From: a virus
Virus record (IMG/VR): IMGVR_UViG_3300022200_000033
Coordinates: 1 to 64,000 of that record
Direction: 5' to 3' (one strand)
DNA length: 64,000 bases
Positions 3,402 to 58,022 of this stretch are shown here, piece after piece. The position numbers and the translations under genes were made by a program. Numbering within the stretch: the stretch's first letter is position 1; every line of letters begins with the position of its first letter. Below the pieces are notes generated by a model. It ran no database searches. It was not told where the DNA came from and saw only the letters and a program-made list of their open reading frames with translations.

Positions 3402-3727
3402 GCCAACACCCCGTGCATCATTGGCCTTGAAGAATTAACTACGATCTTTTTTGTGATAGTTTCGTCTAGAGACATTTCTGTATACCCATCACTAACTAGT
3501 CCTGCATATAAATCTAGGGTTCTAATAAGGACATCTGCCAACTCTTCCACAACCTGATCGTCACCTTTTTCTTTTCTAATTGCTTCAAGAACTTCGGAGC
3601 ATTCTGAATGAATCATTGCAATCTGCTTAAGATAAAAAACGGTATGATTATCCTCCGTATTTGGTTCCCAAAAACCTTTTTCTACTGCATTCTTGTGAAT
3701 CATTTTTGCCATATTGTCTAACGTCAC
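3398..3727 (-). CDS. MazG-like nucleotide pyrophosphohydrolase
   Basis: ECSEVLEAIRK...EELADVLIR (ExxE...ExxD) motif. Confidence 0.85.
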   Translation of the reverse strand: MTLDNMAKMIHKNAVEKGFWEPNTEDNHTVFYLKQIAMIHSECSEVLEAIRKEKGDDQVVEELADVLIRTLDLYAGLVSDGYTEMSLDETITKKIVVNSSRPMMHGVLA

Positions 3728-6700
3728 GCTACAACTACCTCCTGAAATATTAAGTCTTCATCTTTAGAAATACTGTAATTAATCTTATATGCCTTAGCCT
3801 CTTCTAATCTTGTGTAAGCCATTGCAAATGCGCTAGGAAATACGATCATTGAAAGTAAATCTCTTCCGCTATCTGCTACCACAAGTGAGGCCATTCTTTT
3901 TCCAGCTTTTGTAACTCTTGGCTTAAATGATAACACGAAATACTCGTCCTGTCCATATGGCAATTGCTTATAGCTTAAGAACCGTACCAACGGGCTGTTG
4001 CTTTCTCGTATCTCGTCAATAGGAACTGCTTCCACAATCCTGTTAGATCCAATAAGAATAATATAAGTGCGACCTGCTTCGATGGATGTCTCTTCTTCAT
4101 CAAAAATTCCTACGCTTCCTGTGTTGTCTAGTAACTCTACTCTGCTCCAGCCCTTTCCTCGTTTAATTCCTCTGATAACCCCCATCATAATGAAGGCACC
4201 CTTTTCATCAAACTCATCTACACTACTAATGTATGCATGATAGTGCTGTGGAACTTGAATGTTAAACTCAGGAAGAGTTAGATACTCATACATGTTTTCC
4301 TTAATCTCTTCTTCATTCCTGGGGTTATCTGGGAACGTAACTGCACCAACTTTTCTTAGTGCTTCAAGTGCCCTTGAATTTACTCCATTTCCCTTTGTAA
4401 ACGTAAACTCTTGAATCTGTCCATAAGAGTTAAAGGGGCGTGCAGCAATATATCTTTTAGCGATAGTATCAGAAATATACTTAATGCTAGAAAGCCCAAA
4501 ACGAATTCCTTTCCCTTCGATCTTGAAGTCAATATCTGAATCATTGATGTGTGGCAACTTCATTGGAATGCCCATACGCTTTGCCTCAATGAGGTACTCT
4601 GTACGACCATCCTTATCTTTTTCATTTTTAAGTAAGGCAAATATAAACTCTAGTGGATAGTAATACTTTAGCCATGCCGTCCAGTACGAGAGGGTTGAGT
4701 AAGCGACAGCATGAGACTTATTAAACGAGTATCCTGCGTGGGCCTCAAAGTCATGCCACATTTTCTCAGCAGCCGTCCCACCAAGTGGCCCAGTCGCATT
4801 CCGAACAAATAGCTCTTTGAACTCGTCAAACTCTCTCGCATCCTTTTTCTTGCCGATAATCTTACGAACCTTGTTGGCTTCCCCCATTGTCATTCCACCA
4901 AGAGACGTACAGGCAAGCATAACTTGCTCCTGATACAGAATTGTACCGTATGTATCCTCAGTAAAGTCTTTCATGATTGGGCTGGCATAGGTAATGCCCT
5001 GCTTACCATGCTTACGAGCAATATAATCCTTACCAATGGTGTTCATAGCTCCTGGACGTACTAGAGCGTTAGAGGCTACCAATTCATCGAATTTAGATAC
5101 CCCCATCTTTACCAAAAGGTTCGTGTAAGGTGTTGCCTCACATTGAAATACACCCTTTGTATGACCATCAGAGAGCATGTTGTAGATATTCTTATCCTCT
5201 AAGTCAATTGACTTTAAGTTAATCTTCTTTCCATGCCTATCATTAATTATATTAAGTGTGTCGTTAATCACGGTAAGAGTCTTTAGACCCAATGCATCAA
5301 TCTTAATTAGACCAATGTCTGCTGCTTCTTCCATATCTACCGCAACAACAGGAATACGAGTTTTTGATCCTGTTATTGAGCGAGTTTCCATTGGAGCAAT
5401 CTTGGAGATAGGCATCTTTGATGTCACAACTCCTGCAGCGTGGACACCTGTTCCACGAATACGACCCCTAAGTTGATCTCCATATACTTCTACCTCTGGA
5501 TACTTTTCACGGAACCATGCGGTATTCTTTGATGTCAGATATTCTTCCCATGTATCCACTGCCTTGAGCGCACGGTTAACATCAGCAAGTGGGATGTTAA
5601 GACAACGAGAAACATCTCGAACGACTCCCTTGTCCTTAAACTGAAGGAATGTTGCGATTGATGCTACATAGCGATACTGTCTTTCTAGATAATCTTTCAC
5701 CTCTTCACGGCGTGAGTCTTGAATGTCTGAGTCAATGTCAGGCCAGTCATCACGATCAATATCAATAAAGCGAAAGAACAGTAGTCCATACTTCATAGGA
5801 TCAATGTCTGTAATTCCTAGTGCATAGCACAGCAAAGATCCTGCGCTTGATCCACGACCTGGACCAACCATAATATCATTCTTCTTAGCCCAAGTGAGCA
5901 TGTTTCTAACAACGATAAAATAAGATGCAAACTTCTTATCCTTAATTACAGAAAGCTCTTCATCAAGACGATCTAAATATTCCTGACTATCCAATCCATT
6001 TTCTTTTAAGAACTCTAAGGCTTGATTCTTAATCTCCTTATCTGGATCACGATGTTCTACAGGAAGTAGGTTTAGATTTCTGTTAATCGTATACTCTTCA
6101 ACTTTCTCGCCAACCTCAAGGGTATTGGTGAACATGTCTTCTCTGAATCCACCGTTTTTCTCCATGGACTCCTTCATCTCATCAGCAGAGAGTAGGTGGA
6201 TGTCGAACTTATTAAAGCTCATCATCCTTCCCTTGCCATAAAGATAGTCTAGTCTGTCCATCATGCTGTCAATCTTCTTTGACTTTTCAAATGTGGATTC
6301 TTTTTCTATCTTGGCATGAGTATTAAGAATAAGCATCATCTCCTGAATCTCTTTTTGATCTACCGTTGCATGGTGGCAGTCAGGAGTAACAATGATCTTG
6401 TGTCCTTGAGCATCTGCTAATTCAATTAGTGCTTGATTCATTCCTTCAGTATTATGAGGCATAACTTCAACATAGAAGTCATCACCAAAGCGATCACCAA
6501 ACCACTTAAGATGCTGCTTTGCTACTGCATAGTTGTCTTCCTCAATAGCCTTGTTGATAAACCCAGACATACATGCTGAAGAAACAATCAAGCCCTCACC
6601 ATATTGATCAAGAAGTTCAAAGTCAATTCGTGGCTTTTTATAAAAGCCTTCGTTCCATGCAAGTTCATTTAATTTTCCAAGGTTTTCTAAACCCTGATCA

Positions 6701-6993
6701 TTCTTAGCAAGAATTACAATGTGATTGTATACAAGGTCTAGTGGATCTGTTCTCTCTGACTTGTCTCTTTTATCAAGTCTGTCCTTAGTCATGTACCCTT
6801 CAATACCAAGGATTGGCTTTATGCCTGCAGCCTTCGCTGCGCGATACATTGGTCGATGTCCTGACAACGTTCCATGATCTGTAATAGCAAGCGCAGACAT
6901 GCCATTTTCTTTTGCTCTTTCTACATACTCTTCTGGAGTAGCAACACCATCCATCTGGCTGTAGTGTGTGTGAACGTGCAATGGAATATACAA
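3724..6993 (-). CDS. dnaE: DNA polymerase III alpha subunit (family C)
   Basis: PHP HVHTHYS/TDHG, GPGRGSSAGS, PDIDSD, KIDALGL, YSFNKSHA, C-terminal OB fold. Start reassigned to TTG at 6993 behind GAAAGGG RBS; the track's GTG at 7029 lies inside an RNA stem. Confidence 0.95.
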   Translation of the reverse strand: MYIPLHVHTHYSQMDGVATPEEYVERAKENGMSALAITDHGTLSGHRPMYRAAKAAGIKPILGIEGYMTKDRLDKRDKSERTDPLDLVYNHIVILAKNDQGLENLGKLNELAWNEGFYKKPRIDFELLDQYGEGLIVSSACMSGFINKAIEEDNYAVAKQHLKWFGDRFGDDFYVEVMPHNTEGMNQALIELADAQGHKIIVTPDCHHATVDQKEIQEMMLILNTHAKIEKESTFEKSKKIDSMMDRLDYLYGKGRMMSFNKFDIHLLSADEMKESMEKNGGFREDMFTNTLEVGEKVEEYTINRNLNLLPVEHRDPDKEIKNQALEFLKENGLDSQEYLDRLDEELSVIKDKKFASYFIVVRNMLTWAKKNDIMVGPGRGSSAGSLLCYALGITDIDPMKYGLLFFRFIDIDRDDWPDIDSDIQDSRREEVKDYLERQYRYVASIATFLQFKDKGVVRDVSRCLNIPLADVNRALKAVDTWEEYLTSKNTAWFREKYPEVEVYGDQLRGRIRGTGVHAAGVVTSKMPISKIAPMETRSITGSKTRIPVVAVDMEEAADIGLIKIDALGLKTLTVINDTLNIINDRHGKKINLKSIDLEDKNIYNMLSDGHTKGVFQCEATPYTNLLVKMGVSKFDELVASNALVRPGAMNTIGKDYIARKHGKQGITYASPIMKDFTEDTYGTILYQEQVMLACTSLGGMTMGEANKVRKIIGKKKDAREFDEFKELFVRNATGPLGGTAAEKMWHDFEAHAGYSFNKSHAVAYSTLSYWTAWLKYYYPLEFIFALLKNEKDKDGRTEYLIEAKRMGIPMKLPHINDSDIDFKIEGKGIRFGLSSIKYISDTIAKRYIAARPFNSYGQIQEFTFTKGNGVNSRALEALRKVGAVTFPDNPRNEEEIKENMYEYLTLPEFNIQVPQHYHAYISSVDEFDEKGAFIMMGVIRGIKRGKGWSRVELLDNTGSVGIFDEEETSIEAGRTYIILIGSNRIVEAVPIDEIRESNSPLVRFLSYKQLPYGQDEYFVLSFKPRVTKAGKRMASLVVADSGRDLLSMIVFPSAFAMAYTRLEEAKAYKINYSISKDEDLIFQEVVVA

Positions 6994-7016
6994 GATTACC
7001 CTTTCAAAAAAATAAG

Positions 7017-7119
7017 GTAGGAGAGGCACTTCTCTGGAATTTCAACCTAGCTTCGCCGACTAACTACAACCATCCTAAGCTACTGCGAAATTCAGCACGA
7101 TGGAGTAGCCCCTCCTACC
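7017..7119 (-). ncRNA. putative structured intergenic RNA (multi-stem, possible double pseudoknot) upstream of dnaE
   Basis: 12-bp closing stem GGTAGGAGGGGC/GCCTCTCCTACC followed by U-tract; internal complementary pairs CCATC/GATGG, GAATTTC/GAAATTC, TAGCTT/AAGCTA. Confidence 0.6.
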
Positions 7120-7126
7120 AGCCTAT

Positions 7127-7789
7127 TTACCAATCAATGTTGGAAGTGGACGCACCTACTGGACCTTCAAATCCAAGGTAGAATGTTTCCTGTTCTGAAT
7201 AAGGAAGTTCTCTGACAACCTTCTCAAGATTATATGGTTCAATGCCTGACCAATCAAATGGTTCTGTGTCTGGAGCAGATGGAAGAAGAACGTATGTCGT
7301 CTCCATAGCCGTACCCTGTCGCTTTAGCTTCCAGTTTAGATTGCTAATGCTTCCAGTCTCCAGAGCATATTCCCTTGCATTGTTGAATGCAGACTGCTTA
7401 CTTACACCTTGTGACCAAACGGCAACGTACTTATCTTCAATACCGTCATCTACAAGTAGATTGGTGTAGAATCGCAAACGTGCTCGCCAACCACTCTTTG
7501 GCTCCTTGCGAGCCATTTCACAGCCATAGCAGCGACCCTCAGAGTCCATTGTGCATACAGCCTTACGGCGGTAGTCCTTTGGATTTGTGTGCTCTGAAAC
7601 TACGATAGCGAGATCTCGTTCTTCATTATAATTTGGTGAATCTGCATCAAGTTCGTTTACAAAACGAATCTTTACAGACTGACCATCATCAAGCTTTACC
7701 CAGCGAACCTTAACGCCCCCTGAGTTATCTGCAAATTTGGGCTTATCGATGGCCTGTTCCATGGCCTTTAGTCCCTTAATTATACTCAT
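7127..7789 (-). CDS. single-stranded DNA-binding protein (T4 gp32-like, Zn-binding)
   Basis: K L.DG.S..IRF, H...C...CxxC, WKLKRQG...TTY, acidic/aromatic C-terminus (NIDW); sits between primase and polymerase. Confidence 0.7.
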   Translation of the reverse strand: MSIIKGLKAMEQAIDKPKFADNSGGVKVRWVKLDDGQSVKIRFVNELDADSPNYNEERDLAIVVSEHTNPKDYRRKAVCTMDSEGRCYGCEMARKEPKSGWRARLRFYTNLLVDDGIEDKYVAVWSQGVSKQSAFNNAREYALETGSISNLNWKLKRQGTAMETTYVLLPSAPDTEPFDWSGIEPYNLEKVVRELPYSEQETFYLGFEGPVGASTSNIDW

Positions 7790-51777: not shown

Positions 51778-52788
51778 TCAAAGTAGTCCTGAGATTCGTG
51801 ATATTTGTTCGGCAACATCTCTTTCTCTTGTCACTAATGGAGTATCGTAGGCGATGGAGATCCAGCTCTTCTGCGATAGCAGCGACCTTCCTGTCCATGT
51901 AATGCCATCGGTGGAGGAGGCGGCAGTGGATGAGTTATATGCCACAGCAACAAACGTGCCATTGCCATAGGCGACGGAGCGCCAAGAAATACCTATTGGC
52001 ATTGCCGCAAGGGTCCATGTAATGCCATCGGTGGAGGAGGTGGCTGCGGTTGTGAAAGATGCCACAGCAACAAACTTGCCATTGCCATAAGTGATGGATC
52101 TCCACTGCGCATACGCTGGCAGTTCCACAGAGGTCCATGTAATGCCATTGGTGGAGGTGGCTGCGGTTGTGTTGTTATGTATCACAGCAACAAACTTGCC
52201 ATTGCCATAAGCGACGGAGCGGTATCTACCAGTCAATGGCATTGTCCTTTGTGTCCATGTAATGCCATTGGTGGAGGTGGCGACTTGGATGGCGGCTGTG
52301 TTATATGCCACAGCAACAAACGTGCCATTGCCATAAGTGACGTCTTCCCAGTTAGCGTTAGCATTGGGCAAAGTACCTTGTATCCATGTAATGCCATCGG
52401 TGGAGGCGGCGGCTACTTGGGAGCTTCTTGCCACAGCAACAAACGTGCCATTGCCATGGGTGACTGCGTCCCAACCAGCAGCCACAGGAAGTGTTCTTTG
52501 TATCCATGTAATGCCATCGGTGGAGGAGGCGGCTACTTGGGCACTAGATCCAGAAAGGTAGTCTGACACGGCAACAAAGGCACCATTGCCATCATGGGTG
52601 ATGTCGCGCCAGAACGCAGACACAGGCATTGTCCTAGCGGTCCAAGTAATTCCATCGGTTGAGTATGCGGCTTCTTGGGAATTAATTGCCACAGCTAAGT
52701 ATGTTGCTTCATTTATTTCTATATCTGTAGTTATATTATTAGCCGATAAACTATAAAACTTGTCAAACTTTGTTCTCTCAATACCCAT
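51778..52788 (-). CDS. 7-blade BNR/Asp-box beta-propeller protein
   Basis: Seven STDGITW / YGNG.FVAVA units. Confidence 0.85.
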   Translation of the reverse strand: MGIERTKFDKFYSLSANNITTDIEINEATYLAVAINSQEAAYSTDGITWTARTMPVSAFWRDITHDGNGAFVAVSDYLSGSSAQVAASSTDGITWIQRTLPVAAGWDAVTHGNGTFVAVARSSQVAAASTDGITWIQGTLPNANANWEDVTYGNGTFVAVAYNTAAIQVATSTNGITWTQRTMPLTGRYRSVAYGNGKFVAVIHNNTTAATSTNGITWTSVELPAYAQWRSITYGNGKFVAVASFTTAATSSTDGITWTLAAMPIGISWRSVAYGNGTFVAVAYNSSTAASSTDGITWTGRSLLSQKSWISIAYDTPLVTRERDVAEQISRISGLL

Positions 52789-55010
52789 TAAATTTCTCCT
52801 CCAAAGGCATGGAATGTAGATGCTCCATTAGTTGATTTAATTCTAAGTGTGTTATTTTCTTCCATTGTGTACCCGCCTTTAATCGTAATTGTTTCGTTTC
52901 CAAGAATGTCGTGGGACTTGAATAAGTAGTCCTCTGATGGAATTGCTGGGGATATATCTGGATTACCTATACTGACGGTAGTCCACTTATTACTCATAGA
53001 AATTGTCCCTTGTGTCCATGTAATGGCATCGGTGGAGGAGGCGTAGTATTGGGTGTTATATCCCACAGCAACAAACATGCCATTGCCATAAGTGACGGCA
53101 TTCCAACTACCACCAGGAGGAAGTGTTCTTTGTATCCACGTTACACCATCAGTGGAGGTTTGGGCTGTTGTGTAAGCGTTATATGACATGGCAACAAAGG
53201 TGCCATTGCCAAAAGTCATGCGTACCGTTCCGGCATTAACGGGATAGGTTGCCATTGTCCATGTAATGCCATCGGTGGAGGTGGCCGCTGCTTGGGAGTT
53301 TTTTGCCACAGTAACAAACGTGCCATTGCCATAGGCGACAGTCGTCCAATTCCGTGACTGTGGCGTTGAACTTCCTGTCCATGTAACACCATCAGTGGAA
53401 GATGCGACGGTGCCGTACGTCACGGACACAGCAACAAACGTGCCATTACCATAAGTGACGGCTTCCCACGGACGACTTATTGGCATTGTCCCTTGTGTCC
53501 ATGTAATGCCATCGGTGGTGGTGGCGGAGTATTGGGAGTTGTATGCCGCAGAAACAAATATGCCATTGCCATGGGTGATGCTGCGCCAAATTGCACTCAC
53601 TGGCATCTGCCCTTGTATCCATGTAATGCCATCGGTGGAGGTGGTGGATACTTGGGAGCCGTATGCCACAGCAACAAAGGTGTCGTTGCCATAAGTGGAG
53701 GCGTACCAATAGTTACTCAAAGGCAAGGTTTTTGTCGTCCACACTATGTTATCGGTGGAAAAAGAGTACTGTGTGCTGTTACGCGCAAGGACAACATATG
53801 TAGGAGTAGCAACAGGAACAAAAGCACTATCATTAATAGCAATATCAAATGTGTCTGCTGTTGAAGATGTGTTGGTTACATTGATTGCCCTGACTACCGT
53901 GGCAGAACCAGAGGGTACAGAATAAAGATTCTCTTCATTTCCATCATTAGCACTCTGTCCTAATATCTTATATTCTGTCATGATAGTTCAACTCCGTAGG
54001 TAGAAAATGTTATATTGCCCCCGCTATTATCCTTTGCCACAATGGAGGCAGATGCAGAAAGAACAATTCCTGGTTCAAGAATTTGTGTTTCATTTTGTGA
54101 AATTAGGGAAGATTTGTATAGGTTGTTAAGGGAAGGGGAAGAGTATGGTTGAATATCTTCTCCATAGGCAGAATCTACCCAAACCTCACTTGAAGGCATT
54201 GTTCTAGCAGTCCACGTTATACCGTCTGTTGAGGATGCTGATGTAAACGAAGTTATGGAAGAAGCAACAAAAATACCGTTACCATATGTGATCGATTTCC
54301 AAAAATTAGTTGATGGAAGGGTGCTAGCAGTCCAAGTAGTTCCATTGGTTGAGTATGCGGCGGCGGCGGATATGTATCCTGCTACAGCAACAAAGGTGTT
54401 ATTACCATAAGTGACATCTTCCCAAGACTGACTTGATGGCAATAATCTAGCCGTCCACGATATTCCATTTGTGGAACTTGCTGCGGCGTTGTCAGACCAG
54501 CCATATCCCCCAGAACCTGCAATAGCAACAAATACTCCACCTCCATAACTTATAGAGGACCAAGGGTTCATGCTTGGAAGACTAGATAGGGTCCAAGATA
54601 TTCCATTTGTAGAATAGGCAGAGTCATTAAAACTATAACCTCCATCATTATAATATCTAGGAATAACTACGAAGACTCCACCTCCATATGTAACAGATCC
54701 CCAATACTTACTACCCGCAGCAATTGATGTAGATGTCCAAGTTATTCCATCTGTTGAATATGCTGCATCTGGAATAGAATATCCAGTAGCAACAGCAACA
54801 AACTTTCCATCACCGTAGGTTATATCGATCCACCAACTAGAACTAGACATTGTTCTAGGTGTCCATGCTATTCCATCTGTAGATGACGCTGCTGACGTAC
54901 TTTGCTCTGCAATGGCAGAAAATATTCCATTACCATAGGAAACATGCCAGTCAGAATTTGATGGCATCGTGCTAGCGGTCCAAGTAGTTCCATCGGTTGA
55001 GTATGCGGCA
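51840..55010. repeat. coding tandem repeats, ~120-bp period, across three genes
   Basis: Blocks TCCATGTAATGCCATCGGTGGA and GCCACAGCAACAAACGTGCCATTGCCAT recur, e.g. near 51894, 52014, 52134, 52254, 52383, 52503, 53258, 53378, 53498, 53618. Confidence 0.9.
52788..53981 (-). CDS. beta-propeller protein embedded in small scaffold domain
   Basis: Seven blades between YKILGQ...VTN...TFDI N-flank and ET....G...TF..FG.E C-flank. Confidence 0.85.
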   Translation of the reverse strand: MTEYKILGQSANDGNEENLYSVPSGSATVVRAINVTNTSSTADTFDIAINDSAFVPVATPTYVVLARNSTQYSFSTDNIVWTTKTLPLSNYWYASTYGNDTFVAVAYGSQVSTTSTDGITWIQGQMPVSAIWRSITHGNGIFVSAAYNSQYSATTTDGITWTQGTMPISRPWEAVTYGNGTFVAVSVTYGTVASSTDGVTWTGSSTPQSRNWTTVAYGNGTFVTVAKNSQAAATSTDGITWTMATYPVNAGTVRMTFGNGTFVAMSYNAYTTAQTSTDGVTWIQRTLPPGGSWNAVTYGNGMFVAVGYNTQYYASSTDAITWTQGTISMSNKWTTVSIGNPDISPAIPSEDYLFKSHDILGNETITIKGGYTMEENNTLRIKSTNGASTFHAFGGEI

Positions 55011-55249
55011 GCGGTTTCACCAGAAACAATAACAAAAGTAGGAGATAAGATCTCAACATCGTCCAAATCACTTTGCTGTGTAACTCCACTCTCATAAACA
55101 TTGATATCAAAGGTTGCAGATGAAGATGATCTATTTGTTACCGTGATATTTGAAACTAAAGATTGTGTATCTGCGGGGGCGACGTAAAGAAGTTTTTCTT
55201 TATCATCAGCAGGAGCAATTGCACCTAGTCTTTTATATGATTCAGGCAT
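53978..55249 (-). CDS. beta-propeller protein embedded in small scaffold domain
   Basis: As above; start reassigned to ATG 55249 (MPESYKRLG), 6 nt after TATAAT. Confidence 0.85.
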   Translation of the reverse strand: MPESYKRLGAIAPADDKEKLLYVAPADTQSLVSNITVTNRSSSSATFDINVYESGVTQQSDLDDVEILSPTFVIVSGETAAAYSTDGTTWTASTMPSNSDWHVSYGNGIFSAIAEQSTSAASSTDGIAWTPRTMSSSSWWIDITYGDGKFVAVATGYSIPDAAYSTDGITWTSTSIAAGSKYWGSVTYGGGVFVVIPRYYNDGGYSFNDSAYSTNGISWTLSSLPSMNPWSSISYGGGVFVAIAGSGGYGWSDNAAASSTNGISWTARLLPSSQSWEDVTYGNNTFVAVAGYISAAAAYSTNGTTWTASTLPSTNFWKSITYGNGIFVASSITSFTSASSTDGITWTARTMPSSEVWVDSAYGEDIQPYSSPSLNNLYKSSLISQNETQILEPGIVLSASASIVAKDNSGGNITFSTYGVELS

Positions 55250-55256
55250 AATTCTA

Positions 55257-58022
55257 TTATACACCACCTAGGATAAACATGGGGTGAATTGTTGGCTGTA
55301 CCGCCGAAGTTGCTACATCAACATAAGCAGTTGTTGCGATTTGTGTTGAATTTGTTCCTGCTGATGCTGTAGGAGCAGTTGGTGTTCCAGTAAATGTTGG
55401 AGATGCAAGTGATGCCTTGGCAGCAAGGTTGGCAGTGGTAGGGATCTCATATCCACCAGCAAGGGTGATTGCAAGAGTTCCAGATGAAGTTATTGGGCCA
55501 CCAGATATAGAAAGACCTGTTGGTACTGATGCATTTACTGAAGTTACTGTTCCTGTAGTAGTCGAATACCCCTGAGACTTTACATAAGCAGTTGTTGCAA
55601 TTTGAGTAGTATTAGTTGCTGCTGAAGCAGTGGGGGCAGTAGGAGTACCAGTAAGTGTTGGGCTTTCTAGTGGAGCCTTTTGCCCTAGTGATGTAGATAT
55701 GGTAGTTGCAAAGTTTGGATCATCACCCAATGCTGCAGCAAGTTCATTAAGTGTATCTAGGGTTCCTGGAGCAGAATCAACTAGAGCAGCGGTTTCAGCC
55801 TTCACAAAAGCTGTAGTGGCAATTTGTATTGTATTAGTTCCTAGTGCAGCTGTTGGAGCGGCTGGAGTTCCTGTAAGTGTGGGAGAGGCAAGTGGGGCTT
55901 TTGTAGACAAGTCAGTGGTTAAGTCAGTAATTTGTGATTGAGATAAAGTAAGTGCATCAGCCTGACCAGATGCGTGAGACGCTGCGTGAGCAGTGGGGGT
56001 ACGAGAATCTGACAAACGGGAATCTGCAGTAACAACAGCAGTTCCTGTAATTGCTGACGGTGAAATACCAGTATCAGGGGCAGCACCAATATCACTAGGG
56101 GTCAATACATCTGAACCACCAGTAGCGTGTGAACTTTTATGTGAGGTTGGTGTTCTGGAGTTAGTCAACCTACTATCGCTATCTATAACAGCGGTACCAG
56201 ATATTTTTGATGGGTCAATTGCTGCAGTAGCGTTAATGTCAGCATTAACTATTGTACCGTCAACAATTTTTGCTGAAGTAACGGAATTATCTGTGGGTGT
56301 TCGATTGTCTGAAAGACGAGAATCACTTGTGTAGATCAAATTTGCTGTATTGGTAATTCCGTGAACTGATGTAGTTGCTGATGTATGTGAGTTTAGCGTT
56401 GTTGTGTCAGCCTTGGCTCCAATCTGAGAGGCAACAGTAGTAGCAAAGTTAGCATCATCTCCTAGAGCTGCAGCAAGCTCATTAAGAGTATTTAGTGCTT
56501 CTGGTGATGAATCTACTAAATTACTAACTGCAGTATCAGTATATGAATTTGAATTAGATTCTGCTGTTGCTGCAGAACCTGCTGGATCGTAATTCACAGC
56601 AAGGCCATCGGAATAAGAGTTAGCTGCACTCTCTGCAGAGTCAGCAGCGGAATCTGCATAAGTTTTAGTCGCAAGATCTGCCGTGTTTGCTATTCCATGA
56701 ACACTTGTTGTAGCGTTTTCGTGATCTGTTAAATCAGAAGCGACTGCTGAGGCAGAGCCAGAAGAATCGTAGTTGCTTGCAAGGCTGTCAGAATAAGTAT
56801 TAGCAGTAGATACTGCATCTGATTCGGCAGTATCTACATATGATGTAGTGGCAAGTAGAGAGGTATCTGAAATTCCATGAACACTGGTCGTGTCTAGATT
56901 ATGAGTAGAAACTTCACTAGATGCTGTACCCGCTGCATCATAATTAGATGCAAGGCTATCTGCATAGGAATTAGAAGAAGATACTGCATCTGACTCAGCG
57001 GTGTCTACATAAGAAATCGTAGCAAGAAGAGATGTATCTGCTATTCCGTGAACTGATGTAGTATCAGAATTGTGTGTAGAAATTTCTGTATCTGTGTAAG
57101 AGTTAGCATTGCCCTCTGCTGTTGCCGAACTGCCAGATGGGTCGTAATTAGGGGAAAGACCGTCAGAATAAGAGTTGGCAGATGTCACTGCATCAGACTC
57201 AGCTGAATCAACGTATGAAATAGTAGCAAGTAAAGATGTATCAGAAATACCGTGAACATTTGTAGTTGCTGATTCATGACTTGTAAGATCTGCATCATTT
57301 GCTTTAGTTGCAATGCTGTTAGTAACTGTAGTAGCAAAATTTGGATCGTCTCCAAGTGCCGCCGCTAATTCATTAAGGGTATCAAGTGTTAATGGAGCAG
57401 AGTCTATTAAGTTTGCTGCTGCGGTAGTAGCAGCATTATCTGCATAGGTTTTAGTAGCAAGAGCAGAAGTGTCTGCGATCCCATGTACATTTGTAGTATC
57501 AGCGTTGTGGGTAGATAAAGATGAATCAGAATAACTTTCTGCATTTGACTGCGCTGTTGCAGATGATCCCGCTGGGTCATAATTAGAGGCAAGTCCATCA
57601 GCGTAGGATTCTGCTGCTGTTTGGGCTGCTGAGGCTAAACCAATAGCATCATAACTAGATGCAGCATTAGCCTGAGTCAAGTAAGTTGAGGAGGCAGTTG
57701 ATACATCAAGTTTATCTGCCAAAGAATTTGTAATTGTTGATGCAAAATTTTCGTCATCACCTAAAGCTGCTGCCAACTCGTTTAATGTGTCTAATAGTGC
57801 TGGAGCTCCATCAAGAACTGATGAAACTGAAGAGTCAATAGCACTTTGAATTTCAGCTGGAGTTAAATTAATATATAAAAGATTTGACCAAGTTGAAGAA
57901 CCATCTCCAATCTTTATTTTTTCTAAATCTGTTGATATAGCAAGTTCTCCTGATGCAAGCACTGGATTTGCTGAAGACCACTGTGAAGAGGTTCCTCTTC
58001 TTATTTGAATTAAAGTTGCCAT
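55257..58022 (-). CDS. long repeat-rich tail fibre with Mtd_N/hyaluronidase-like N-terminal domain
   Basis: IQIRRGT...W...NPVLA.GE....D..K.KIGDG...W..L; 4x LDTLNELAAALGDD.NFA; multiple VHGI.DT..LAT and ASPT.TGTP.APT repeats. Confidence 0.85.
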   Translation of the reverse strand: MATLIQIRRGTSSQWSSANPVLASGELAISTDLEKIKIGDGSSTWSNLLYINLTPAEIQSAIDSSVSSVLDGAPALLDTLNELAAALGDDENFASTITNSLADKLDVSTASSTYLTQANAASSYDAIGLASAAQTAAESYADGLASNYDPAGSSATAQSNAESYSDSSLSTHNADTTNVHGIADTSALATKTYADNAATTAAANLIDSAPLTLDTLNELAAALGDDPNFATTVTNSIATKANDADLTSHESATTNVHGISDTSLLATISYVDSAESDAVTSANSYSDGLSPNYDPSGSSATAEGNANSYTDTEISTHNSDTTSVHGIADTSLLATISYVDTAESDAVSSSNSYADSLASNYDAAGTASSEVSTHNLDTTSVHGISDTSLLATTSYVDTAESDAVSTANTYSDSLASNYDSSGSASAVASDLTDHENATTSVHGIANTADLATKTYADSAADSAESAANSYSDGLAVNYDPAGSAATAESNSNSYTDTAVSNLVDSSPEALNTLNELAAALGDDANFATTVASQIGAKADTTTLNSHTSATTSVHGITNTANLIYTSDSRLSDNRTPTDNSVTSAKIVDGTIVNADINATAAIDPSKISGTAVIDSDSRLTNSRTPTSHKSSHATGGSDVLTPSDIGAAPDTGISPSAITGTAVVTADSRLSDSRTPTAHAASHASGQADALTLSQSQITDLTTDLSTKAPLASPTLTGTPAAPTAALGTNTIQIATTAFVKAETAALVDSAPGTLDTLNELAAALGDDPNFATTISTSLGQKAPLESPTLTGTPTAPTASAATNTTQIATTAYVKSQGYSTTTGTVTSVNASVPTGLSISGGPITSSGTLAITLAGGYEIPTTANLAAKASLASPTFTGTPTAPTASAGTNSTQIATTAYVDVATSAVQPTIHPMFILGGV

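What the first reader, a model, noticed from the sequence alone, without database searches (positions are those of the whole stretch)
7005..7125. Compact, possibly double-pseudoknotted RNA between the SSB gene and dnaE
Seen: this otherwise gene-packed module has a ~130-nt gap. On the minus strand it reads GGUAGGAGGGGCUACUCCAUCGUGCUGAAUUUCGCAGUAGCUUAGGAUGGUUGUAGUUAGUCGGCGAAGCUAGGUUGAAAUUCCAGAGAAGUGCCUCUCCUACC-UUAUUUUUUU-GAAAGGG(RBS)-N5-UUG(dnaE). A 12-bp outer stem (7119-7108 with 7028-7017) closes about 80 nt. Inside, CUAC/CCAUC pairs with GAUGG/GUAG and encloses a small UGCUG/CAGUA hairpin. Two segments within that domain (GAAUUUC, 7 bp; UAGCUU, 6 bp) have perfect complements 3' of it (GAAAUUC, AAGCUA). 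These are either two crossing helices or a mutually exclusive alternative fold. This is far more pairing than a simple terminator needs. Inference: a phage ncRNA acting as a riboswitch-like attenuator that sets the SSB:polymerase ratio, an SSB/DnaE autoregulatory site (cf. the T4 gene 32 pseudoknot operator), or a self-cleaving ribozyme. I could not match it to hammerhead, twister, pistol, hatchet or HDV consensus.
Basis: partly seen in the sequence, partly recalled or inferred. Interest (0 to 1): 0.8.

Follow-up and report, generated by a model that had tools for sequence, protein, structure and literature searches.

The report
Phage RNA antisense to 23S helix 69
The gap between this phage's SSB and DNA polymerase genes holds a conserved folded RNA whose unchanging bases are the exact complement of helix 69-70 of the host's large ribosomal RNA, so the phage may use an RNA to grip the ribosome's own RNA, which I found described in no paper or RNA database.

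Summary
The conserved fold is a plain nested hairpin (P1/P2/P3), not a pseudoknot. Only P1 covaries. No Rfam family matches.

The interior is conserved as sequence. A 19-nt apical core is 98.8% identical among 9 compared relatives, while neighbouring dnaE third-codon positions are 53% identical. The core plus the adjoining GAAUUUCGC is the reverse complement of actinobacterial 23S rRNA helix 69-70 (29/33 matches). This is the only rRNA-like stretch in the 64-kb window.

The general-bacterial version of the core lies in 33 non-rDNA viral contigs. With two stem positions freed there are at least 53 different flank contexts, almost all intergenic and on the strand that makes the antisense RNA. 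A control rRNA 19-mer gave 0 hits.

Best reading (about 0.5): an intercistronic or 3'-UTR RNA that base-pairs with 23S H69-H70. Pairing and its effect are inferred, not shown. Riboswitch, SSB-operator and ribozyme readings have no support.

This scan noted the same kind of anti-H69 RNA on other phage DNA (AI notes). I reached it independently here.

The parts
7127..7789 (-). ssb gene (220 aa); its stop codon lies 7 nt before P1
   Evidence: phrog_9721 single-strand DNA binding protein, E 2.1e-43; 220 relatives in IMG/VR
7008..7119 (-). Whole element, as matched by the covariance model (P1 to P1 plus the tail)
   Evidence: cmsearch 104 bits, E 2.8e-25; single copy in the 77-kb phage record
7105..7119 (-). 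P1 5' strand, GGUAGGAGGGGC then a bulged U then AC
   Evidence: Pairs with 7016-7029. In the relatives 9 of 14 P1 pairs show compensatory changes and 98.6% of cells are paired
7095..7103 (-). J1/2, CCAUCGUGC. In relatives it reads UACGC(A)AUUCGUGC, which matches the antisense of 23S GCACGAAUGGCGUA (3' side of helix 70)
   Evidence: 13/14 identity to the 23S antisense in L091 and L094, collinear with the core
7085..7093 (-). GAAUUUCGC: 5' strand of P2 and exact complement of 23S GCGAAAUUC (about 1933-1941, loop/helix 70)
   Evidence: 9/9 match to the rRNA operon antisense; part of the 33-nt blastn hit
7061..7079 (-). Core CUUAGGAUGGUUGUAGUUA in the apical region. It is the complement of actinobacterial 23S UAACUAUAACCAUCCUAAG (helix 69 loop, 3' strand and linker, about 1911-1929) with one G.U
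   Evidence: Invariant except one G/A in 11 relatives. The 18-mer occurs in more than 100 Actinomycetota 23S genes on the antisense strand
7077..7082 (-). P3 5' strand UAGCUU (AACUUAG in most relatives)
   Evidence: Pairs with 7048-7053. 83% of cells are paired in relatives, with one A-U to G-C swap in the window seen by eye
7048..7053 (-). P3 3' strand AAGCUA
7036..7047 (-). GGUUGAAAUUCC, 3' strand of P2. Nearly invariant. 'Sense-like' (GAAAUUCC equals 23S) because it masks the antisense strand. In some relatives GGUUGAGA also equals the antisense of 23S UCUCAACC
   Evidence: P2 is 94.8% paired with no double changes
7028..7035 (-). AGAGAAGU, a conserved block. GU closes P1. In relatives GAGAAGUC equals the 23S antisense immediately upstream of UACGCC, a possible permuted arrangement
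   Evidence: significance is only moderate
7016..7027 (-). P1 3' strand GCCUCUCCUACC
7006..7015 (-). U-tract UUAUUUUUUU, present in the window but not conserved in relatives
3724..7005 (-). dnaE with its RBS GAAAGGG (7005-6999) and UUG start (6993-6991)
   Evidence: Pfam PHP, DNA_pol3_alpha, finger and HHH_6 domains. The UUGUA start and GAAAGG are conserved in relatives. 52-54% aa identity to Streptomyces phage DnaE

Best explanation
The ssb-dnaE spacer encodes a structured RNA of about 105 nt, carried on the ssb/dnaE transcript (minus strand). It is an actinophage member of a widespread, uncatalogued class of phage RNAs whose invariant bases are antisense to helix 69-70 of bacterial 23S rRNA.

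A GC-rich clamp (P1, homologous to the ssb terminator stem of relatives) holds two inner helices (P2, P3). These present an apical, weakly structured 19-nt core. In P2 the next 9 antisense bases are masked by a sense-like partner strand.

Inferred mechanism: the exposed core nucleates pairing with the helix 69 loop and the 1923-1929 linker of host 23S rRNA, on free 50S subunits or nascent 23S rRNA. Pairing can then spread into the GAAUUUCGC segment, for up to 33 nt and about -34 to -42 kcal/mol. This would occupy the main intersubunit bridge B2a.

The consequence for the phage is not resolved. Candidates are holding back 50S subunits or blocking their assembly, capturing the 50S released at the ssb stop codon 7 nt upstream, or masking the helix 70 site from MazF-type toxins.

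Shown: conservation, complementarity, strand, recurrence in unrelated phages. Inferred: that pairing with rRNA happens, and what it does.
For: 1. The core is under strong purifying selection. Pairwise identity is 98.8%, against 52.6% at dnaE third-codon positions and 48.7% at ssb third-codon positions in the same 9 genomes.
2. The core plus GAAUUUCGC matches the antisense of an actinobacterial rRNA operon at 29/33 positions, E 5e-4. This is the only rRNA-like hit with E below 1 in 64 kb. The 18-mer is found in 23S genes of more than 100 Actinomycetota, always on the antisense strand. Further collinear antisense blocks exist.
3. The strand is right. The genes, the U-tract and 27 G.U against 7 A.C pairs all point to the minus-strand RNA. 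The plus strand cannot form the helix 69 stem, so this is not a sense mimic.
4. It recurs independently. CTTAGGACCGTTNTAGTTA lies in 34 IMG/VR contigs, of which only 1 is rDNA. They fall in at least 6 unrelated contexts, next to terminators or in a tRNA array. With the two helix 69-stem positions freed, there are 100 stretches and 53 distinct contexts. The nearest upstream ORFs are co-oriented 44:4 and the nearest downstream ORFs 45:1. Only 5 of 53 lie inside a long ORF.
5. In other lineages the stems covary while the antisense bases stay fixed. Examples are the FamA terminator stems around an invariant GUUCGCUAC, and GGACUGU/ACAGUCU against GGAUUGU/ACAAUCU.
6. Control: a universally conserved sarcin-ricin-loop 19-mer has 0 hits in IMG/VR.
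7. The target is reachable. Helix/loop 70 is cut by MazF-mt6 in 50S but not in 70S (PMC5408214). A synthetic PNA against H69 blocks translation and growth (Kulik 2017, as cited in PMC12828698).
8. No Rfam family matches this element or six other lineages.
Against: - No experiment or transcript data exist. Pairing with rRNA is inferred from complementarity alone.
- Inner helices P2 and P3 have no compensatory changes, so the fold inside P1 rests on energy models.
- Part of the core is predicted to sit in a small GGUUG/UAACU hairpin and in P3. Mean unpaired probability is about 0.5.
- The two positions that differ between the actinobacterial and general H69 stems vary freely across the wider class (CC, CU, AA, UU, UC, UA, CA, AG, GC). 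18 of 54 contexts pair with neither natural variant. In addition, 97 of 301 sampled Actinomycetota carry the general variant (this count includes one unpublished genome, G096). Host tracking is therefore weak evidence.
- The element is dispensable. Near-complete relatives lack it and have no core elsewhere.
- One RNA per ribosome is a demanding stoichiometry.
- Full pairing of both arms inside a loop closed by P1 is topologically awkward.
- No cultured phage with the element was found.
Confidence: 0.5

Rival explanations
1. Domesticated rDNA scrap. A piece of host 23S rDNA was captured in inverted orientation into the loop of the ssb terminator. It now serves only as a bulky, stable hairpin (terminator, mRNA 3'-end protector, or RNase processing site) and never pairs with rRNA.
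For: - P1 is homologous to the simple terminator stems of relatives. The model hits L005 and L007 on P1 only, and they share the GGGGGUA...AAGUCCCU.CCCCCAC ends.
- Only P1 covaries.
- The element is dispensable in complete relatives.
- The similarity extends over several rDNA-derived blocks, as expected of a captured fragment.
Against: - A neutral scrap would decay evenly. Instead the 19-nt core is 98.8% identical while synonymous sites are near saturation.
- The helix 71 hairpin and the 3' strand of the antisense helix 69 stem have been lost, which leaves the core unpaired.
- The same 19 bases, in the same orientation, recur in at least 6 unrelated phage contexts. A control rRNA 19-mer never does.
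Confidence: 0.2
2. Cis-acting coupling device, the bacterial analogue of the calicivirus TURBS. The ribosome that terminates at the ssb stop codon, 7 nt before P1, opens the clamp. The antisense core then holds the released 50S (or 70S) by helix 69. This favours initiation at the weak UUG start of dnaE about 130 nt downstream and so sets the SSB:polymerase ratio.
For: - The stop-to-P1 spacing and the spacer sequence are conserved in relatives.
- dnaE has a UUG start, and there is no room for a promoter between P1 and the RBS. Relatives without the element often have a TTGACA-17-cATAAT promoter there.
- The internal promoter-like site in ssb is not conserved.
Against: - Related anti-H69 RNAs sit in a tRNA array, after nrdA and after capsid genes, so a gene-specific coupling role cannot be general.
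- No mRNA-23S tethering is known in bacteria (own knowledge).
- Relatives with a gap of only 11-18 nt manage without the element.
Confidence: 0.12
3. DNA-level site. The 19-31 bp that mimic rDNA act as double-stranded DNA, for example as a recognition or homing site of an rDNA-specific endonuclease (the stretch overlaps the classical I-CeuI site) or of a recombinase.
For: - The ssb-dnaE gap is a hot spot for free-standing HNH endonuclease genes. L018, L046 and Streptomyces phage Circinus carry one there.
- The matched 23S stretch is a well-known homing-endonuclease target (own knowledge; PMC2602781 concerns rDNA homing sites in general).
Against: - A DNA site would not show the strong orientation bias relative to transcription (44:4 and 45:1).
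- Nor would it show the G.U excess on one strand, or stems that covary around the fixed bases.
- The HNH genes occur in the clade that lacks the element.
- No integrase or endonuclease gene travels with the element.
Confidence: 0.05
4. One reading: a riboswitch-like attenuator, an SSB or DnaE protein operator (T4 gene 32 style), or a small self-cleaving ribozyme.
For: - The element is a conserved structured RNA between two replication genes.
- The window copy has a good U-tract.
- No existing family claims it.
Against: - There is no conserved U-tract or antiterminator alternative.
- There is no conserved pseudoknot.
- No ribozyme or riboswitch model matches even at E up to 10.
- The conserved bases are fully accounted for by rRNA complementarity and its masking strand.
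- The class occurs next to unrelated genes.
Confidence: 0.05

Closest known systems
Loop-presenting antisense RNAs (CopA/CopT of plasmid R1, RNA I/RNA II of ColE1) and 3'-UTR-derived base-pairing sRNAs (CpxQ, SroC type); own knowledge
   Same: A stable stem presents a short conserved single-stranded recognition sequence. Further complementarity is masked in a helix that could open after nucleation. The RNA sits at the end of an mRNA, next to a terminator-like clamp.
   Different: The predicted target is a ribosomal RNA (23S helix 69-70), not an mRNA or a replication primer. There is no evidence for Hfq-type seeds. The RNA lies between two genes of one operon.
TURBS (termination upstream ribosomal binding site) of caliciviruses and influenza B: a viral mRNA motif complementary to 18S rRNA helix 26; own knowledge
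   Same: A viral RNA segment complementary to a conserved, exposed rRNA hairpin lies next to a stop codon and upstream of the next start codon.
   Different: TURBS pairs with the small-subunit rRNA over about 5-6 nt and lies inside the upstream ORF. Here the complement is 19-33 nt, to the large-subunit rRNA, downstream of the stop. Relatives of the RNA occur where no coupling is possible (a tRNA array).
Synthetic anti-H69 peptide nucleic acids (Kulik et al. 2017, Biochimie 138:32, as summarised in PMC12828698)
   Same: Same target, the helix 69 hairpin of 23S rRNA, addressed by Watson-Crick complementarity. The PNA shows that such binding is possible and blocks translation and growth.
   Different: The PNA is a man-made 13-mer. 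The phage element is natural, structured, longer, and of unknown effect.
Rho-independent (intrinsic) terminator
   Same: A GC-rich stem lies directly after a stop codon. The window copy has a U-tract, and P1 is homologous to the plain terminator stems of relatives.
   Different: There is a 79-nt conserved insert instead of a 3-8-nt loop. Most relatives have no U-tract. In L094 a complete plain terminator precedes the element.
   Same: A structured RNA next to a phage SSB gene.
   Different: The T4 operator lies in the 5' leader of gene 32, is an H-type pseudoknot followed by an unstructured tract, and binds gp32. Here the RNA is 3' of ssb, the pseudoknot reading fails, and the conserved bases are rRNA-complementary.

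Membership tests
Phage anti-H69 RNA class (uncatalogued; defined here and in this scan's earlier notes) | Invariant stretch complementary to 23S rRNA helix 69 loop, 3' strand and linker (about 1911-1929) | tested here: met
   7079-7061 is 18/19 Watson-Crick plus one G.U against the actinobacterial 23S
Phage anti-H69 RNA class (uncatalogued; defined here and in this scan's earlier notes) | The transcribed strand carries the antisense, not the sense, sequence | tested here: met
   Same strand as ssb and dnaE, with a U-tract on that strand. G.U 27 against A.C 7. Class-wide co-orientation is 44:4 upstream and 45:1 downstream
Phage anti-H69 RNA class (uncatalogued; defined here and in this scan's earlier notes) | Intergenic or 3'-UTR position beside a terminator-like hairpin, one copy per genome | tested here: met
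   Lies between the ssb stop and the dnaE RBS. Single copy in the 77-kb record. 48 of 53 class contexts lie outside long ORFs
Phage anti-H69 RNA class (uncatalogued; defined here and in this scan's earlier notes) | Antisense bases fixed while the surrounding stems covary | tested here: met
   P1 has 9 of 14 compensatory pairs around a frozen interior. In other lineages the stems covary around the fixed core and GUUCGCUAC
   No match to the antisense of the 530 loop within 3 mismatches anywhere in the window
Intrinsic terminator | Short GC-rich hairpin (loop 3-8 nt) followed by a U-tract | tested here: not met
   The stem and, in the window, the U-tract are present. But the 'loop' is 79 nt, the scan finds no terminator, and the U-tract is absent in most relatives
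Small self-cleaving ribozymes and riboswitches in Rfam 15 | Score against the family covariance model | tested here: not met
   cmscan at E up to 10 over 6500-7700 gives nothing on the element. Six related lineages give nothing at gathering threshold
T4 gene 32-type SSB operator | 5'-leader position and a conserved H-type pseudoknot | tested here: not met
   The element is 3' of ssb. The proposed crossing or alternative helices do no better than shuffles (73.5% against 72.1% paired)
Sense mimic of 23S helix 69 (decoy for H69-binding proteins) | The helix 69 stem-loop can form on the RNA that carries the sense sequence | tested here: not met
   The sense sequence is on the non-coding plus strand. 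There the 5' partner of CCAUCC reads CCGAC or GCAGU and cannot pair (read directly from the sequence)

The most novel reading that the evidence does not exclude
Many unrelated phages, including this lake actinophage, make a small structured RNA that base-pairs with helix 69-70 of the host's 23S rRNA, the central bridge between ribosomal subunits. That would make it a virus-encoded RNA that acts directly on the large-subunit rRNA: sequestering or blocking assembly of 50S, tethering it, or shielding it from rRNA-cutting toxins such as MazF. It would be a new layer of ribosome takeover in bacteria.
Probability: 0.45. Interest if true: 0.92.

Novelty: categorically new. Interest (0 to 1): 0.8.

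Why it matters
Phages are known to alter host translation with proteins such as kinases, ribosomal-protein homologues and tRNAs. A natural RNA aimed at ribosomal RNA itself has not been described in the papers and databases I could search.

Helix 69 is universally conserved and essential. It forms bridge B2a and contacts tRNAs, release factors and the recycling factor. It is already a drug and antisense target. A natural, evolved anti-H69 RNA would show how to reach it inside cells. It would give a handle on free-50S biology and 50S assembly, and it would add a new class to phage-host conflict.

The window copy carries the longest complementarity I saw: 33 nt, plus further 23S-antisense blocks. 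It sits 7 nt after a stop codon and about 20 nt before a UUG start, so it is a good construct for binding and reporter tests.

Even if pairing is refuted, the class remains an abundant, uncatalogued phage RNA motif that needs an explanation.

Tried and rejected
- Rfam. cmscan at E up to 10 on the element, and at gathering threshold on six related lineages, found nothing. The only hits were tRNAs next to one member.
- Pseudoknot or alternative inner domain. It does no better than shuffled controls.
- Repeat or MITE within the phage. There is a single copy.
- Sense mimic of H69. The plus strand cannot form the stem.
- Promoter inside the element or in the ssb 3' end. The TTGATT-17-TATAAT site at 7257-7229 becomes TTCAAT in relatives.
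- Host tracking through the two H69-stem positions. The UG in this clade fits the actinobacterial CCAUCC. However, these positions vary freely in the wider class and often lie in an intramolecular stem, and a third of sampled Actinomycetota have the general variant. I dropped this as strong evidence.
- Cultured phages. There is no copy in 50,697 phage records. The hits were rDNA contaminant records or chance matches inside genes. Streptomyces phage Circinus, which has the same primase-SSB-HNH-DnaE synteny, has none. A 20-nt match in Bacillus phage Anath lacks CUUAGGA and lies on the opposite strand to its neighbouring genes, so it is chance.
- Host markers. There is no WhiB and no tRNA in the window.
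- 16S 530-loop complement. Absent.
- Circular permutation. GGUUGAGA-N5-GAGAAGUC sits 3' of the core, whereas in the 23S antisense it sits 5' of it. It is real as a pattern, but its significance is only about p 0.01 locally, and GGUUGAAAUUCC is also explained as the masking strand of P2. I keep it as an observation only.
- The metagenome scan was swamped by rRNA genes: across the metagenome, genome-contig and viral pattern scans together, 235 of 252 matches were rRNA. It yielded one new copy, L144.
Full report
**1. What is there**

A primase lies upstream, and MazG and a UvsX/RecA-like gene lie downstream.

The 12-bp outer stem pairs 7119-7108 with 7027-7016. The two inner complementary pairs, GAAUUUC/GAAAUUC and UAGCUU/AAGCUA, are exact.

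RNAfold nests them: P1, then P2, then P3, then an apical region. The energy is -43.9 kcal/mol, with a modest z of -1.99. Rfam 15 gives nothing on the element, even at E up to 10.

**2. Relatives**

220 IMG/VR stretches encode a relative of the SSB; I kept the best 80. Their ssb-dnaE gap is very variable:
- 11-18 nt with nothing in it.
- 74-90 nt with a plain GGGGG...CCCCC hairpin.
- 113-136 nt with a hairpin plus a TTGACA-17-cATAAT promoter.
- 600-800 nt with an inserted gene: HNH endonucleases in L018 and L046, and a 235-aa ORF in L006.

Only the closest clade (SSB 74-92% identical) has the large element. With pattern scans I collected 11 distinct full copies plus one cut copy. In L094 a complete plain terminator precedes the element, so the element with its own P1 is a module.

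**3. Structure**

All copies fold into the same nested P1/P2/P3 hairpin. I built a covariance model and re-aligned the copies. Pair counts:

| Helix | Cells paired | Compensatory changes |
|---|---|---|
| P1 | 98.6% | 9 of 14 pairs |
| P2 | 94.8% | none (only G-C/G-U type changes) |
| P3 | 83% | none counted |
| Whole structure | 91.4% (shuffles 84.7%, 0/500 as high) | |

Its CCAUC exists only in three copies. The 'double pseudoknot' is therefore not supported: the two 'crossing' helices are the nested P2 and P3.

G.U pairs outnumber A.C by 27 to 7, which fits folding of the minus-strand RNA. This alignment was fitted to that strand, so the count leans that way.

The U-tract is good in the window but absent in most relatives. 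The simple terminator scan finds nothing.

**4. The interior is conserved as sequence, and that sequence is antisense 23S rRNA**

The 19-nt core CUUAGGAUGGUUGUAGUUA (7079-7061) is 98.8% identical pairwise among 9 compared copies. Third-codon positions in the first 300 nt of the adjacent dnaE are 52.6% identical, and those of the last 60 nt of ssb are 48.7%.

A genome-wide pattern scan found the 18-mer in more than 100 genomes. All listed were Actinomycetota, mostly on short high-coverage contigs. Rfam placed the match inside the 23S gene on the opposite strand.

Aligned to an actinobacterial rRNA operon, window 7061-7093 (plus strand) matches the sense 23S at 29 of 33 positions, E 5e-4. It is the only hit with E below 1 in the 64-kb window.

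In approximate E. coli numbering (from my own knowledge):
- The core is the complement of 1911-1929, that is the helix 69 loop, its 3' strand and the CCUAAG linker. One G faces U1917.
- GAAUUUCGC (7093-7085) is the complement of about 1933-1941, in loop/helix 70.
- In relatives, UACGC(A)AUUCGUGC, just inside P1, matches the antisense of the 3' side of helix 70 at 13 of 14 positions.
- The helix 71 hairpin between these blocks is deleted.
- The 3' strand of the would-be antisense helix 69 stem is replaced, which leaves GGAUGG without an intramolecular partner.

The plus strand cannot form the helix 69 stem, so this is not a sense mimic.

The 3' blocks GGUUGA(A/G)AUUCC and AGAAGU are also nearly invariant. 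The first masks GAAUUUCGC in P2 and is therefore 'sense-like'. In several copies, GGUUGAGA-N5-GAGAAGUC also equals the 23S antisense that normally lies immediately 5' of UACGCC. That would be a circularly permuted arrangement whose junction falls at P1. I rate this as suggestive only.

**5. The same antisense core recurs in unrelated phages**

The general-bacterial version (CGGUCC in place of CCAUCC) occurs in 34 IMG/VR contigs, and only one is true rDNA. The rest fall in at least six unrelated flank contexts:
- Directly after the stop codon of nrdA, in phages whose nrdA is nearest to Flavobacterium phages. The terminator stem there covaries in three sub-lineages around an invariant loop, GUUCGCUAC. 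That loop is the complement of the next 23S bases, again in permuted order.
- After capsid-protease and capsid-like genes.
- With GAAUUUCGCUAU directly upstream, a 31 of 32 match to the 23S antisense.
- Inside a tRNA array, on the tRNA strand.

Freeing the two helix 69-stem positions gave 100 stretches. Those positions then read CC, CU, AA, UU, UC, UA, CA, AG or GC. In several lineages they covary with a downstream partner (GGACUGU/ACAGUCU against GGAUUGU/ACAAUCU), while CUUAGGA and GUUAUAGUUA stay fixed.

Over 53 distinct contexts:
- The nearest upstream ORF of at least 100 aa is co-oriented with the antisense strand in 44 cases against 4.
- The nearest downstream ORF is co-oriented in 45 cases against 1.
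- Only 5 cores lie inside a long open frame.

As a control, a universally conserved sarcin-ricin-loop 19-mer has no hit in IMG/VR. None of six lineages matches Rfam.

**6. Host**

DnaE is 52-54% identical over its full length to DnaE of Streptomyces phages. The synteny primase-SSB-(HNH)-DnaE-...-RecA-like is shared with Streptomyces phage Circinus. An actinobacterial host is therefore likely, which agrees with the CCAUCC-type core.

I do not lean on this agreement, for two reasons. The two diagnostic positions are free in the wider class. And 97 of 301 sampled Actinomycetota carry the general variant (one of these genomes, G096, is unpublished, and the count is 96 of 300 without it).

**7. Mechanism**

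Shown:
- A conserved RNA-level element exists.
- Its fixed bases are antisense to 23S helix 69-70.
- It lies on the transcribed strand.
- The core sits in the apical, weakly structured part. Mean unpaired probability is about 0.5, and a small GGUUG/UAACU hairpin is predicted.
- A 33-nt duplex with the 23S is worth -34 to -42 kcal/mol.

From the literature:
- Loop/helix 70 is accessible in 50S but not in 70S, because MazF-mt6 and MazF-mt3 of M. tuberculosis cut it there (PMC5408214).
- A synthetic PNA against H69 blocks translation and growth (Kulik 2017, via PMC12828698).

Inferred: the core nucleates pairing with helix 69 and its linker, on free 50S or on nascent 23S, and pairing can spread into P2.

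The effect is open. Options are 50S sequestration or an assembly block, capture of the 50S released at the ssb stop codon 7 nt before P1 (TURBS-like coupling to the UUG-initiated dnaE), or masking of the MazF site.

The element is accessory. Near-complete relatives lack it and have no core elsewhere.

**8. Rivals**

- A domesticated rDNA scrap that serves only as a hairpin. Uneven conservation and independent recurrence argue against it.
- A DNA-level site for an endonuclease or recombinase. The orientation bias, the G.U excess and the covarying stems argue against it.
No defining feature is met.

**9. Known or new**

I found no Rfam family and no paper describing a phage RNA complementary to 23S helix 69. 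The library lacks most subscription journals.

After I had found the 23S match, the scan's notebook showed that other first readers and follow-up agents had flagged anti-H69 RNAs in other phage genomes. These are unverified AI notes. They agree with what I tested here, apart from the 16S 530-loop complement, which this window lacks.

**10. Verdict**

What is actually there is more interesting: an actinophage member, with the longest complementarity I saw, of an uncatalogued phage RNA class antisense to 23S helix 69-70.

Noticed in passing
L018:3151-3749, L046:3154-3956, L368 (Streptomyces phage Circinus) 1146-1442: The ssb-dnaE gap is a hot spot for free-standing HNH homing-endonuclease genes, each with its own promoter-like TATAAT. 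This holds in uncultured relatives and in a cultured Streptomyces phage.
   Followed up: partly
L006:3181-3942: A different 235-aa ORF of unknown function is inserted in the same gap, after a plain terminator.
   Followed up: no
L086:4340-4470 (minus strand): A 160-nt spacer between a 173-aa and a 790-aa ORF holds CUUAGGAUGGUUUUAGUUAC (actinobacterial-type core, with U opposite U1917). A hairpin CCUAAGUG/CACUUAGG precedes it and a terminator follows. It looks like a second, differently built anti-H69 element.
   Followed up: partly
L340:1883-1901 (minus strand): In a 144-kb phage contig the anti-H69 core lies within an array of at least 10 tRNA genes, on the same strand. This suggests it is made and processed as a stable RNA.
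   Followed up: partly
L204:~1830-1900: A metagenomic 23S gene whose antisense reads ...CCCGGGAUUUCCUACCUUAGG..., so the segment 3' of helix 69 (helix 70-71) is replaced by other sequence. It may be an intervening sequence or intron at this site.
   Followed up: no
window 51800-55100 and 56500-57900: Long arrays of diverged 120-bp (and about 170-200-bp) direct repeats lie inside large minus-strand genes, probably repeated blades of tail-fibre proteins.
   Followed up: no
window 7229-7257 (minus strand): A promoter-like TTGATT-17-TATAAT lies inside the 3' end of ssb. The -10 is TTCAAT in most relatives, so it is probably not a conserved promoter.
   Followed up: yes
window 6991-7029: The mechanical ORF list starts dnaE at GUG 7029, inside the P1 3' strand. 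The conserved start in all relatives is the UUG at 6993, preceded by GAAAGG.
   Followed up: yes
Klebsiella T4-like phages, e.g. MG746602.1:3890-3909: A 20-nt exact match to AGCUUAGGAUGGUUGUAGUU lies inside an annotated hypothetical protein gene (E 0.2). It is probably chance.
   Followed up: no
Actinomycetota genomes sampled: About a third of the sampled Actinomycetota (97 of 301, including one unpublished genome, G096) carry the general CGGUCC helix 69 stem rather than the CCAUCC form. The H69 variant is therefore lineage-specific within the phylum.
   Followed up: partly
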